The notes beneath the pieces are model-generated. The model was not told the origin of the DNA. It was given only the letters and a program-made list of their open reading frames with translations, and made no database searches. Both the position numbers and the translations under genes were made by a program. From Octopus vulgaris (taxonomy: Eukaryota): DNA of 64,000 nucleotides. The stretch is taken from positions 132,990,001-133,054,000 of the forward strand of contig OX597817.1 of NCBI GenBank assembly GCA_951406725.2. The letters are read 5' to 3'. Below are positions 180 to 59,302 of this stretch, in pieces (positions within the stretch are counted from its first letter, which is position 1; every line of letters starts with the position of its first letter).

Positions 180-430
180 TGTTTATCAATGTGTGCTGCA
201 AGATTCCTGGTATGAAATCGTGTATTGAAACAGGTATTGTTGTATTATTGTATTCAGGATGGTCATTTTTTTTTTCTTTTGCCAAATAAACACACGCGCT
301 GTATATACGCTCTTCACTCGTTCATTACTGTTCTTGATTTAACTCATGTCCATTCTCCGGAAATCTTTTGTCACACATTTGTGACCTCCTCAGCGACACT
401 TTTCATTTTCGTGTGTGTCACGAAAATAAT
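180..430 (-). mobile_element. (TA)n-associated PLE-like terminal repeat, family H1
   Basis: Shares gtg(t/a)ttgaaacag...ttc.g.atggtcat...gcca(a)ataaa...cacacgc with 7678-7900, 8215-8325 and 39866-39900. Lies next to (TA)n and contains a hammerhead motif on the minus strand. Confidence 0.6.
357..396 (-). ncRNA. Degenerate minimal type-I hammerhead ribozyme (family H1)
   Basis: Minus strand reads tcg-CTGAGGA-G-GTCACA-aatg-TGTGAC-AAAA-GATT-TC-cgg. Stem II is 6 bp; the conserved GAAA is mutated to AAAA. Confidence 0.6.
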
Positions 431-484
431 ATCTATTTCAACACACGCTTTCTCATCAGAAATTTTTTTGATATATAAATTGAT

Positions 485-640
485 ACTCGAAAATCGGAGT
501 AGGTAAAACAGTGAATAACTTATGCTGCCTGTCTCGTTTCTCTATATGTTTCTTACGTTGTCCGAAAAAAAGTTCGTTTTCCCTATTTTTGTTGTTTTAT
601 GTTCTCGTTTTTCATTTTCATGTCCGGTAGCCATATACGC
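485..640 (+). mobile_element. (TA)n-associated repeat, family H2
   Basis: tcgaaa..ggagtag...tgtcc.gta.ccata. Homologous copies in the opposite orientation at 31095-31182 and 32258-32430; all border (TA)n. Confidence 0.55.
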
Positions 641-1697
641 ATGTATATATATATATATATATATATATATATATATATATATATATATATATATATATAT
701 ATATATATATATTTCGTTTTTGGGTTTGGTTTGCAAGATTCTTTATATGAGTTCGTGTGTTGAAGCATATTCTGTTGTGTCAGGGGAGAATCATTTTCTT
801 TTTGTGACTTATTATGTAACACACTCACCAGTAAAATTTCCACGTTTTTCTTATTTATATTCTCCTAAAATTTTCGTTGCGTTTTGCAAACTTTTCAATA
901 ATTTTGACTCTCCCCAGACACAACAGATTATATATACATACATGTAGGTATGTACATATATGTATGTATATATGCATATATATATTATTTATATTATTAT
1001 ATGATCGAAAGTCATTTCAAAATAAATTTATATATATATATACACACACACACACACACACACATATTTATATGTGTGTGTCTGTGTATAATACAAACAT
1101 AATATGTTTGTACACACGTATAATTATATCACAACAATGCATTTTTATTTACACGTTATATGCGTGTTTGTGTGTGTGTGTCTGTCTGTCTGTCTGCGTG
1201 TGTGTGTGTGTGTGTGCGTGCGTGTGTGTCTGTGTGTGCGCGTTGATAGATAGATAGATCGCAAAATAATGTTCGCTAAATTCTTTTCATATCCGAAACA
1301 ATATCAGTATTATAATTGTTGTTATTGCTGTTGTTGTAGATGTTGGTGGTATTATAAATAAATGGCGTAGGACTAGAGTAGACCTTGGTTCATTATTCAC
1401 TAATCAGCGTGACATCTATTTCTGTGAAGGCTCCACGCTGTAAACACGTAACTGAATCACAGGGTCAAGGGTCAGAGTTATGTATACGTACGTACACACA
1501 CCCACACAACCAAATATACAGATGTTGTTTGATGCCATAGCAATCCAGAAACTTCCGGAGAATGTGAAATAATTTGTTTTACAAATAATGGCATGTAAAT
1601 ATTGGGTTGAAAATCTTTTGAGTGTGTCTGTGTGTATGGGTGTGTATGTGTGTGTGTGTGTGTGTGTGTGTGTGTGTGTGTGTGTGTGTGTGTGTTT

Positions 1698-2425
1698 GGG
1701 TGCGGGCGTGGCTGTGAGGTAAGAAGCTTGCTTCCCAACCAGATGTTACCAGGGTCAGTCACACTGCATGGTACCTTGGGCATGTATATATATATATATA
1801 TATATATATATATATATATATACAAATAGATAGATAGATAGATTGATAGATAGATAAATAGATATAGATATATACATACTTATATATAAATATATTCATA
1901 TATATATACATATATATACACACATATATATGCATATATGCATATATATATATATATATATATATATATATATATATATATATAATATATATATATATAT
2001 ATATAAAGCACCGGTCTTCGATGAAGGAGTCCCGAAACTATAGTCCGTATGTAGTACTATATATATATATATATATATATAATATAAACACATAAATGTG
2101 AAACAAGGTAGAAAAAAGAGTACTCAAATCACCAGGGGTAGAGTAATATGCTTTATTTAAAAGCAGCAGAAATTCAACAAAATATATATATATATATATA
2201 CCTATATGTATATTTGTATATTTATATCTTTGTATGTATATGCATGATTGCATATGCATATATATGTCTAGTCCATGGTGATATGTTTACCTCTCTATAA
2301 CTTAGCGGTTCGGCAAAAGTAACCAGCAGATAAGTACTATTCTAAAGGCAAAAAAAAAGAAAGAAAGAAAAACAAGTGCTGAGGTCGATCCATTCGAGGC
2401 AAGTGATTGACAAATAAATGATAAA
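1698..2425 (+). mobile_element. SINE-A split by an expanded internal (TA)n tract that holds PLE-like fragments
   Basis: Head gtggctgtgaggtaagaagcttgcttcccaacc...accttgggca at 1698-1782. Tail taacttagcggttcggcaaaag...ataagtact at about 2270-2425. Confidence 0.7.
2011..2050 (+). ncRNA. Degenerate hammerhead-like motif inside (TA)n
   Basis: TCGATGA-A-GG-agtc-CC-GAAA-CTATAG-TC: variant core, palindromic stem III (ACTATAGT) and a GUC triplet. Stem I is poor. Confidence 0.4.
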
Positions 2426-56080: not shown

Positions 56081-57564
56081 TATACACACACATATATACA
56101 TACAGACAGACACACATATATATATACGTATATATATATACATATCTATATATGCACCTATACACAATGACACATAGACTTACACAAAAGCCCTGTATAA
56201 TAAATGCATATGTCTCTAACCGTGTATGTCTACGTATATATATATCCTTGAATGAAATTCTTTCGCGTTTTTTATGACGACGACAACGACGACGATGATG
56301 ATGATGATGATGATGATGATGATGATGATGATGATGATGATTGTTGTTGTTTGTCCATGGTCAGTATTGCTTAGCGTACTTATGATCAAAGAAATTTAGT
56401 CTAGCCATGACCATCTCTCTCTCTCTCTCTCTCTCTCTCTCTCTCTCTCTCTCTCTCTCTCTCTCTCTTTCTCTCTTTCTCTCCTTTTCTCTTTATATAT
56501 ATATATGTATGTGTGTGTGTGCCTGCGTGTGTGAGCACGCGTGCGCTTGTGTACAGATATACATACATACATACATACATACATAAATACATGCATATAA
56601 ATATATATATGCATTAAGAGAGTACTCTATGGTGGAGGTAACCAATATTATATCCTACTTTAATCCTTGTAGAGATTAAGCACATTGCTACTAATCCAGT
56701 AGCGTCTTATGTATACAGGAAGAATCTTTATGAAAGATTACTAGCATCTTTATATCGCCCAATGAATGCTTAGGTTAATTAACGCAGTCATGAAACTAAT
56801 TGTTACGAATTGTTAAATTACAGCCTGACTATATTTTCAAAGAGCGAGCGATAAAGAAAGAGAGGAACCCTGAATGTGATTGCGTTTGCGGCAATATGCT
56901 TGAATATATTTGTGGCTTCCAGCTTCTGTAATACTATAGTCTTGGAAATGGTCAACCGGCGTTTGTTTTTAACTTCCTGTTACGCGTCAGGGGATTGGAC
57001 CAAAGTCCGGGTTATTTTACTCTGCTTCGCCTTCAAATTTGAATGAGCGTTTCTGGTATTTAATTGTATTCATGGATGCTTCAAAATACGCCCAAACAGG
57101 AACTTCTATATATACAAATATATAAATTGAGTCTGCGCACCTCGCACGTGCATATGTATGGTTTTAAAGTATATCAAAATATAATTGTGTTTGCATATGC
57201 CTGTATATATTTGGTTTGCATAAATTTTTGGCAGAGACATATTTTCGCTAAACTTTGTGTAAAAGAAATATGTGATCCTGTTTGTTTCCGGTTAATATAT
57301 CGATTATGTATGGGAATGTTTTTAAACATATTTTGGAATAAATATTTATTGATATGCATACACACACACACATACATACACACAAACACACACACACATA
57401 TGCATACACACAAACACACACACACGTAGACATACACGGTTAGAGACATATGCATTTATTATACAGGGCTTTTGTGTAAGTCTATGTATCATTGTGTATA
57501 GGTGCATATATAGATATGTATATATATATATATGTTTGTCTGTATGTATATATGTGTATGTATA
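56081..57564. repeat. Inverted duplication of about 150 bp (56081-56235 and 57424-57564) around a 1.19-kb spacer
   Basis: Unique core tgcacctatacacaatga(c/t)acatagacttacacaaaagccctgtataa...gtctacgt is mirrored with one mismatch. Confidence 0.88.
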
Positions 57565-58317
57565 TATACATATATATATATGTATATATATACATATATA
57601 TATATATGTATATACATACATATATATACATATACATATATATATACATATACGTGTCTGTATGTATATATATATATATGTGTATAAACACGCACACACA
57701 CATATATATATATACAAATATACATGTATGTATATATATAACACGTATATTCAAACACGTATATATATATATATTTGTTCTTTATATACGTATGTATGTA
57801 TATATATATATATGTATGTGTGTGTGTAAATGTGTGTGCATATATTTATATACACACATACTCTTTCCCCCTCTCTCTCTCTCTCGCTCTCTCTCATACA
57901 CGCACATACTCACAAGTAGAGATTGATAAGTCAATAGGCAGACTGAAAAACAGAGAACTAGCAAGATAAACATATGTATATATATATATATATATATATA
58001 TAGAGAGAGAGAGAGAGAGAGAGAGAAGGGGAGAGGGAGGGAGGGAGAAAAAAGATACCAGAAGCTTAGAAGGGTTAACATTAAGACAGACGCGAAGCAT
58101 TCCAATTTAGTGAATAAAGGTGTCGTATCATCAACAAGTGTGATTCTAGTTATATTATTATTATTATTATTATTATTATTATTATTATTATTATTATTAT
58201 TATTATTATTATTATTATTATTATTATTTTCATTATTATTATCGTTATTATTATTATTATTATTATTATTATTATTATTATTATTATTATTATTATTATT
58301 ATTATTATTATTATTAT

Positions 58318-59220
58318 CTTCTTTCAAATTTTCTTCCATTTCTTGCCGAGTGTCTTCCCGACTCCTAGGGCAAAGAAACTCATAGTGTATATTGGTAGGC
58401 CATTAAACCAAACTCAGTAGTTCGTTCATTTTTTTTTTTTTTTTTTTTTTAAAGTTAAATTAAAATACATGAGCAGCAACAGTTCTCACATCGACAGTGC
58501 TCTTCTCAATACGTGTGATGTACCAGTTAAGACAATCTTTTGCACTTCTTGCAGGGATGGTAAGCCAGGGATCATTCTCATATAATTTTCGGTTCCCTTC
58601 TTGATCATTCCTAGGGCTCCTACGATCACTGGTATTGTAACCGCCTTGAGATGCCACATTTTCTCAATTTCAATGAGTAGGTCTTTATATTTTCTGAGCT
58701 TGTCAAACTCTTTCGCTGAGATATTATGATCACAGGGGATGCTCATGTCGATCAATAAGCAAACTTTATTGTTTTGGTCTTTCACAACAATATCTGGTTT
58801 ATTGGCCTTGATGGTTCGGTCTGTATGTACTGGAAAGTCCCACAGAATGGTTACATTTTCTCCTTCAGTTACAGCCTCAGGGTGGTGATTATACCACTTG
58901 TCGGCAGTTTTGATATTGTAATGCCGACTTATTAGCCAGTGGAGATATTGGCCAACTCTGTCATGTCTTAATTTATACTCCACTGGTGCTAAGACTTTAC
59001 ATCCAGAGATTAGGTGGTCCACTGTTTCAATCATGTCGTTGCAGAATCGGCATTTTGGGTTTGCTCCATTTTTCATCACATTGGCCTGGTAGTTCCGGGT
59101 TAATAGGCTTTGGTCTTGAGCAGCCAGGATGAAACCTTCGCTCTCTGCTTTTAGCCCTGAGCTCCGCAGCCACTGATGGGTTTGCTTCTGGTCAACATCA
59201 GCTTGTTTGCTGCGGGTCAC
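58318..59220 (-). mobile_element. 5'-truncated R4/Dong-clade non-LTR retrotransposon in (TAA)n; uninterrupted ORF 58486-59220 plus 3' UTR
   Basis: CCHC knuckle CRFC-x8-H-x4-C, RHD motif and restriction-like endonuclease KPD...ID...K..KY. (TTA)n at 58153-58317 and 59221-59302. Confidence 0.95.
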
Positions 59221-59302
59221 TATTATTATTATTATTATTATTATTGTTATTATTATTATTATTATTATTATTATTATTATTATTATTATTATTATTATTA
59301 TT

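What the first reader, a model, noticed from the sequence alone, without database searches (positions are those of the whole stretch)
180..59302. Each microsatellite class hosts its own mobile element
Seen: R4/Dong-type LINEs adjoin (TAA)n (58318-59220, 48954-49455). An RLE-like 3' end sits in (CATA)n (55220-55580). One 3' end occurs twice in (TCTA)n with the same polarity (9887, 29667). At least four hammerhead-bearing families sit in or beside (TA)n. Known: Dong (R4 clade) targets TAA repeats and some Tx1 families target microsatellites. Inference: this genome has a partitioned guild of repeat-targeting elements, and the (CATA)n and (TCTA)n specificities may be undescribed.
Basis: partly seen in the sequence, partly recalled or inferred. 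Interest (0 to 1): 0.75.

Follow-up and report, generated by a model that had tools for sequence, protein, structure and literature searches.

The report
Jumping genes that target four-letter repeats
In this repeat-rich, likely octopus genome three kinds of jumping gene sit inside their own short DNA repeat (TAA, TCTA or CATA) at both ends, which likely means their enzymes cut only there, and the CATA kind belongs to a wider lineage, flanked by CATA or CTTA in other organisms too, that I did not find described.

Summary
Mostly real, partly known. Genome-wide copies show three LINE groups inside one microsatellite, in one orientation, also at variable 5' break points: Dong/R4 in (TAA)n (5' 18 of 24), a young Tx1-type LINE in (TCTA)n (31 of 39), and two old R4-like families in (CATA)n (18 of 35; 9 of 22), against about 0.5% background and 0-1 opposite-strand hits. 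So these are targets, not tails; a control family has its (ATG)n only at the 3' end (0 of 31 at 5'). The CATA families belong to a lineage apart from TAA-targeting Dong; relatives in metagenome contigs are flanked by (CATA)n or (CTTA)n. I found no paper on this lineage or on TCTA targeting (Repbase not searchable). The scan noted the TCTA/GATA Tx1 and the hammerheads before; I saw no note on the CATA lineage. 'One element per class' is overstated: TAA has many families, TC/GA, GGT and AAG none found, and only three hammerhead families are confirmed, one tied to TAA rather than TA.

The parts
58318..59220 (-). 5'-truncated copy of a young R4/Dong LINE (full length about 5.5 kb, one 1234-aa ORF with RT, zinc knuckle, RLE)
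58153..58316 (-). (TAA)n target array, 3' side of the Dong copy
59221..59300 (-). (TAA)n target array, 5' side of the Dong copy
48954..49458 (-). Older, frameshifted Dong-like fragment of another family; 3' end lost
49459..49601 (-). (TAA)n array at its 5' break point
55221..55580 (+). 3' end of the R4-like CATA1 LINE (last 40 codons and 3' UTR with an internal CATA array at 55434-55473)
55169..55220 (+). (CATA)13 array at its 5' break point
9888..10001 (-). 3' end (114 bp) of the Tx1-type LINE; (TCTA)n on both sides (9801-9887, 10002-10054)
29668..29710 (+). 3' end (43 bp) of the same Tx1-type LINE between (TCTA)n arrays (29588-29667, 29711-29986)
10501..10674 (+). Hammerhead family HH1, core 10543-10565, TA on both sides
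23160..23340 (-). Diverged HH1 copy, core 23304-23282
3346..3455 (-). Hammerhead family HH2, core 3447-3401; one longer copy (L143) carries a decayed endonuclease-like frame upstream
8490..8760 (.). Hammerhead family HH3, inverted pair, core 8581-8550 (-); elsewhere tied to TAA/CAA at its 5' side

Best explanation
Three groups of LINE retrotransposon sit inside one microsatellite each, (TAA)n, (TCTA)n or (CATA)n, in one orientation and at both ends, most likely because each encodes an endonuclease that nicks that repeat and primes reverse transcription there. Shown: the repeat lies at the fixed 3' end and at many different 5' break points; the opposite strand is almost never used; the domain content is RT plus RLE (Dong, CATA families) or APE plus RT (Tx1 type). 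Shown: the CATA families group with intact elements from other organisms that begin and end in (CATA)n or (CTTA)n, apart from the TAA group. Inferred: target-primed reverse transcription; for the Tx1 family a bottom-strand nick at a T/A step (AGAT^AGAT) and a top-strand cut in the same register, since 18 of 25 5' junctions fit ...ATCT| ; for the CATA/CTTA lineage the element's last bases match the repeat, so RNA-target pairing may help priming, and the N-terminal Myb-like region may set the repeat. Inferred: microsatellites are abundant safe landing sites, and several unrelated lineages use them independently; this is a set of separate specificities, not a one-to-one partition. The hammerheads are likely ends of Penelope-like elements with a looser TA bias.
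For: Junction counts, at least 12 exact bases of the motif within 30-40 bases: Tx1 5' 31 of 39, 3' 39 of 46; Dong 5' 18 of 24, 3' 29 of 32; CATA1 break points inside the ORF 18 of 35 (37 rows, 2 of which run past the reference); CATA2 9 of 22. Background 0.4-0.7% per motif in 78 evenly placed 10-kb stretches. Opposite strand: TAGA 1 of 39, TTA 1 of 24, TATG 0 of 37 and 0 of 22. Copies found in those unselected stretches: Tx1 4 of 4 on both sides, Dong 2 of 2, CATA1 3 of 4 at 5'. Four full-length Tx1 copies all start after TCTA. Phase: 18 of 25, and 9 of 14 without microhomology. Control tail family: 3' 20 of 31, 5' 0 of 31. Relatives: 9 of 12 metagenome loci carry CATA (3) or CTTA (6, two of them one element) at an element end, three at both ends. 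Tree: 24-row group with all CATA and CTTA rows, SH-aLRT 100.
Against: No empty site and no enzyme assay. CATA families are old (about 80-90% identity between copies) and only about half of their 5' junctions pass the strict test. The CATA1 3' UTR carries its own CATA array, so short copies are uninformative (only in-ORF break points were counted). Each metagenome relative gives one collapsed contig, not many junctions; 3 of 12 show no array and L339 has TAA at its 5' contig end. The tree has no named reference element and no outgroup. Tx1 relatives in another organism lie in head-to-tail arrays without TCTA (8 of 47 loci scanned), so that specificity is not deep. Background was genome-wide, not matched for repeat-rich regions.
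Confidence: 0.88

Rival explanations
1. The arrays are element-encoded 3' tails that expand by slippage; the elements insert without sequence choice.
For: This does happen here: a very common short element ends in (ATG)n with 0 of 31 at the 5' side; the CATA1 3' UTR holds an internal array.
Against: The motif lies upstream of 5' break points scattered over kilobases of ORF, in one strand and mostly one phase.
Confidence: 0.03
2. Insertion is loose, but copies survive or pile up in repeat-rich regions, or 5' ends join by microhomology to any nearby repeat.
For: About 31% of the window is short tandem repeat; CATA copies are old; HH1/HH2 show only a partial TA bias.
Against: TA is the commonest array (3%) yet borders only 1 of 39, 0 of 24 and 1 of 37 LINE 5' junctions; strand polarity; 99% identical Dong copies show the same pattern.
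Confidence: 0.05
3. A strictly partitioned guild: every microsatellite class has its own element and the families diverged to avoid each other.
For: Four motifs each have a distinct element type; two Tx1 sister families with similar 3' ends differ in flank, (TCTA)n versus (ATT)n.
Against: Many families share TAA; no recurrent neighbour for CT, GGT, ACC, AAG; only 8 of 53 TCTA, 21 of 62 TAA and 9 of 78 CATA array blocks hold a tested LINE, so sites are not limiting; CATA specificity is shared with distant relatives, so it predates this genome.
Confidence: 0.1

Closest known systems
Dong (Bombyx mori), DongAg, DongBg and ostracod Dong, R4/Dong clade, (TAA)n targets (PMC3812793 and PMC7998251, passages read)
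   Same: One ORF, N-terminal Myb-like region without zinc fingers, RT, C-terminal knuckle and RLE; insertion in a microsatellite. The window's TAA elements fit fully.
   Different: The CATA families form a separate group (about 27-35% identity to the window's Dong) and use (CATA)n; relatives use (CTTA)n.
Kibi (TC)n, Koshi (TTC)n and crocodilian Tx1 families on (TTCC)n/(TTTC)n (PMC4494074, passages; supplements not available)
   Same: Two ORFs, APE-RT-zinc finger ORF2, L1-like; strand-specific microsatellite target.
   Different: Target is (TCTA)n; host is an invertebrate; no named Tx1 was available to place it next to Kibi/Koshi.
Waldo (R1 clade), ACAY repeats (PMC3812793, passage)
   Same: ACAT is one of the two ACAY units, so the CATA repeat is a known target.
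   Different: Waldo uses an APE endonuclease; the CATA families use an RLE, so this would be convergence on the same repeat.
Togen (TG)n and microsatellite-specific HERO families (PMC4640811, passages)
   Same: RLE LINEs with microsatellite targets.
   Different: Other clades (N-terminal zinc fingers recalled, not tested against named sequences) and other motifs.
Penelope-like elements (Neptune, Naiad) with TA bias and 3' hammerheads (PMC8557442, passages)
   Same: Short 5'-truncated hammerhead-bearing ends, inverted pairs, TA flanks.
   Different: HH3 has TAA/CAA at its 5' side and no array at its 3' side; no full-length partner was recovered here.

Membership tests
R4/Dong clade (window TAA element) | Single ORF with RT, C-terminal CCHC knuckle and PD-(D/E)xK endonuclease | tested here: met
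   1234-aa ORF; RVT_1 and zf-RVT; knuckle and KPD...D...K motif read; best PDB matches are R2 proteins
R4/Dong clade (window TAA element) | (TAA)n target on both sides | tested here: met
R4/Dong clade (window TAA element) | 5' HDV-like ribozyme (PMC3774820) | tested here: inconclusive
   Rfam finds none in the 5' 320 bases; a GC-rich leader with HDV-like words is visible by eye only
R4/Dong clade (CATA lineage) | Single ORF, RT plus C-terminal knuckle and RLE | tested here: met
   intact 1120-1160-aa relatives; no intact octopus-like copy found
R4/Dong clade (CATA lineage) | N-terminal Myb/SANT-like region, no N-terminal zinc finger (PMC7998251) | tested here: met
   Profile match to the Dong-like set over 1073 columns from the N-terminal tryptophan motif on; tested on relatives, the genome's own copies lack this end; Myb identity itself not tested by fold
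R4/Dong clade (CATA lineage) | RT phylogeny with named R4, Dong, Rex6 | tested here: inconclusive
   Separate well-supported group beside the TAA group, but no named references or outgroup, C-terminal 400 aa only
Dong proper (CATA lineage) | (TAA)n target | tested here: not met
   0 TAA at 37 5' junctions
Tx1 clade (TCTA element) | ORF1 with zinc knuckle; ORF2 APE-RT-zinc finger, L1 group | tested here: met
Tx1 clade (TCTA element) | Sequence-specific insertion (over 20% of flanks, criterion of PMC4494074) | tested here: met
Tx1 clade (TCTA element) | RT tree placement with Tx1, Kibi, Koshi rather than L1 | not tested
   No named Tx1 sequence among the 120 listed homologs; the label rests on architecture and recall
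Penelope-like elements (HH1-3) | Type I hammerhead near the 3' end | tested here: met
   Core and stem II present, 19 versus 1 shuffled; free folding does not give the hammerhead; cleavage untested
Penelope-like elements (HH1-3) | Linked RT and GIY-YIG ORF | tested here: inconclusive
   Decayed GIY-YIG-like C-terminus upstream of one HH2 copy, recognised by eye from a recalled motif; none for HH1, HH3

The most novel reading that the evidence does not exclude
An unnamed, old lineage of R4-related LINEs, sister to the TAA-targeting Dong group and present in several distant animals, is specialised for four-letter microsatellites and has switched by one base between (CATA)n and (CTTA)n; intact members give natural pairs for finding how a restriction-like LINE reads its target, and it has converged with Waldo on the same repeat using another endonuclease class.
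Probability: 0.5. Interest if true: 0.7.

Novelty: new variant of a known kind. Interest (0 to 1): 0.55.

Why it matters
How site-specific LINEs choose and change targets is an open question and bears on their use for gene insertion. Intact relatives that differ by one base in a four-base target (L332/L333 versus L340), and a young, near-intact Tx1-type family on (TCTA)n with a sister on (ATT)n, make domain-swap tests direct. It also shows that many of this genome's microsatellite loci are interrupted by multi-copy elements, which matters for marker design. The TAA and TA parts are known biology.

Tried and rejected
Rfam on the whole window gave only microRNA-model noise from repeats among the 150 rows shown of 565; the repeat finder was swamped by microsatellites. 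Intron-like stretches in the Tx1 5' UTR: no spliced joint in contigs of 4 runs; dropped. No RNA holder was listed for the Tx1 ORF2, so nothing is said on expression. Viral contig scans found no relatives. The 5' test for the second Tx1 family was invalid because the reference copy was itself truncated; only its 3' flank is reported, by eye. The first junction count merged copies with identical flanks and was redone. The protein atlas gave only generic RT clusters. No empty-site test was run because the read tool does not take long repeats. No full-length CATA copy was found in this genome. Fell et al. 2025 is not held.
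Full report
Setting. The window lies in a 2.8-Gb animal genome; about 31% of it is short tandem repeat. The nearest named homolog of its Tx1-type protein is from Argonauta (68%), so the host is likely an octopus (inference). I tested each claim on genome-wide copies from nine searches and on 78 evenly placed 10-kb stretches (780 kb) that served as background and as an unselected sample. For counts I dropped 29 loci that repeat another locus or overlap the window. A junction scores if at least 12 exact bases of the strand-specific motif lie within 30 bases (40 for the CATA families). 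Background is 0.4-0.7% for TAA, TCTA and CATA and 3% for TA.

TAA. The 58318-59220 element is a young family (2413 first-look candidates, top 40 hits 99-100% identical), about 5.5 kb with one 1234-aa ORF. TAA follows 29 of 32 3' ends and precedes 18 of 24 scoreable 5' ends, which are spread from base 1 to base 5211 of the element. At least four further R4-type families end in TAA (family D2 16 of 17), as do short elements. The 48954 piece belongs to another family and has lost its 3' end. Dong on TAA is known, also from a snail and said to be usual in molluscs (PMC3812793, PMC7998251; passages), and Dong-R4 is listed as active in Octopus vulgaris without any target analysis (PMC13282606, part 1 of 3 and term search).

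TCTA. The two short ends belong to a 6.2-kb LINE with ORF1 (zinc knuckle) and an intact 1147-aa ORF2 (APE, RT, zinc finger), closest in the PDB to L1; 957 candidates, 97-98% identity. TCTA follows 39 of 46 3' ends and precedes 31 of 39 5' ends; the opposite strand occurs once; all four full-length copies start after TCTA; 4 of 4 copies in the unselected sample have it on both sides. Of 25 junctions upstream of the 3' UTR end, 18 fit a break after ...ATCT, 9 of 14 where there is no microhomology; the 3' junction is fixed (38 of 48 begin ATATCT). That fits one cut register; the nick at a T/A step is my inference, since the element's last bases overlap the repeat. An older sister family with a similar 3' end is followed by (ATT)n in most copies with an intact end (by eye); its 5' side is untested. 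Relatives from another organism form head-to-tail arrays without TCTA (8 of 47 loci scanned). Microsatellite-targeting Tx1 families are known for TC, TTC, TTCC and TTTC (PMC4494074, passages). The scan noted this family before (e1-9514738).

CATA. The 55221-55580 piece is the end of an old RLE LINE (CATA1; 1218 and 3396 candidates). Its 3' UTR holds an internal CATA array, so I counted only break points inside the ORF: 18 of 37 rows score, 2 rows run past the reference (18 of 35), none has the opposite strand; several misses show decayed CATA or later insertions. At the 3' end 34 of 38 have at least 8 bases and 19 of 38 at least 12. A second family (CATA2, 5442 candidates) gives 9 of 22 at 5', 0 opposite, and 6 of 15 with at least 8 bases at 3'. 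Both are only about 27-35% identical to the window's Dong. A protein search found 21 relatives at 35-50% identity above a clear score gap, many intact. Their profile matches the Dong-like set from the N-terminal tryptophan motif on. A metagenome scan gave 12 loci: L332 and L333 begin and end in (CATA)n, L331 ends in it; L340 begins and ends in (CTTA)n, L334 and L335 begin in it, L337/L338 (one element) and L339 end in it; L336, L341 and L342 show none. In a tree of 56 rows (last 400 residues, quick mode, midpoint root; L338, L341, L342 left out) all CATA and CTTA rows lie in one 24-row group (SH-aLRT 100), CTTA rows in a subgroup (96), and the TAA rows on the other side. No named element was in the tree. 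ACAT is a known target, but of the APE-encoding Waldo (PMC3812793).

Hammerheads. A strict scan finds 19 motifs in the 780 kb against 1 after shuffling, and 4 in the window from 3 families. HH1 copies not picked by their own search have at least 8 bases of TA at 12 of 15 3' and 9 of 15 5' ends (background 5%); HH2 16 and 7 of 37; HH3 has TA at none of 14 and TAA/CAA at 6 of 14 5' ends. One HH2 copy continues upstream into a decayed GIY-YIG-like frame (motif recalled). This fits known Penelope-like ends with TA bias (PMC8557442, passages) and many earlier scan notes.

Is it a partition? Clustering the flanks of all arrays in the sample gave recurrent families at AT, AC/GT, AAT and ATG, but none at CT (0 of 54), GGT, ACC or AAG; rare families could be missed. 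The AC/GT clusters match a common SINE that carries such arrays inside. The ATG cluster is a tail (20 of 31 versus 0 of 31), which also shows that the test separates tails from targets. Only 8 of 53 TCTA, 21 of 62 TAA and 9 of 78 CATA array blocks hold one of the tested LINEs (lower bounds). So four motifs have specialists, several share one motif, and sites are in excess.

Literature. Ten full-text searches and passages of twelve papers (also PMC4640811, PMC3774820, PMC5035012, PMC9115989, PMC10294476, PMC13580325 and bioRxiv 2026.07.22.740005) showed no R4-type element on CATA or CTTA and no Tx1 on TCTA. Repbase and Dfam could not be searched, Fell et al. 2025 is not held, Kojima and Fujiwara 2004 was seen only as a citation, and the supplements of PMC4494074 were unavailable; any of these may list such families.

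Verdict. Targeting is well supported (0.88). The TAA and TA parts are known; TCTA is a new motif for a known habit; the CATA/CTTA lineage is the part worth following. New variant of a known kind, interest 0.55.

Noticed in passing
L282-L305 (G000): A second, older Tx1-type family (8754 candidates) with a similar 3' end is followed by (ATT)n, the other strand of Dong's target.
   Followed up: partly
L343-L381, L385, L389: Contigs filed under a bacterial MAG hold long head-to-tail arrays of intact Tx1-type LINEs about 6.5 kb apart with no microsatellite; likely host DNA, target unexplained.
   Followed up: partly
L153:436-560; L332, L333, L335, L340 5' ends: Dong and the CATA/CTTA relatives start with a short hairpin followed by a GGACGTG-like word; in Dong an HDV-like ribozyme seems to follow. 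Rfam finds nothing.
   Followed up: partly
window 55434-55473: CATA1 carries its own target repeat in its 3' UTR; many copies are 105-bp ends or tandem pieces broken there.
   Followed up: partly
L153:600-1530: The Dong 5' UTR holds an internal duplication of about 450-470 bp, with three partial units in L156.
   Followed up: no
window 48445-48950: Remnant that reads like the end of a Tc1/mariner transposase (motif recalled) next to the truncated Dong-like piece.
   Followed up: no
L171:3082-4870 and reverse strand: Tandem array of a 353-359-bp hammerhead-bearing unit, retrozyme-like, seven motifs in both orientations.
   Followed up: no
L195, L183, L174 and others: Several short elements end in TAA and often lie directly upstream of Dong insertions, so their tails may serve as Dong targets.
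   Followed up: partly
window 34869-36010: Nested inverted and direct copies of one SINE form a 285-bp inverted repeat.
   Followed up: no
window 2008-2057: Single hammerhead-like stretch with an altered core between TA arrays; no second copy in the loci held.
   Followed up: partly
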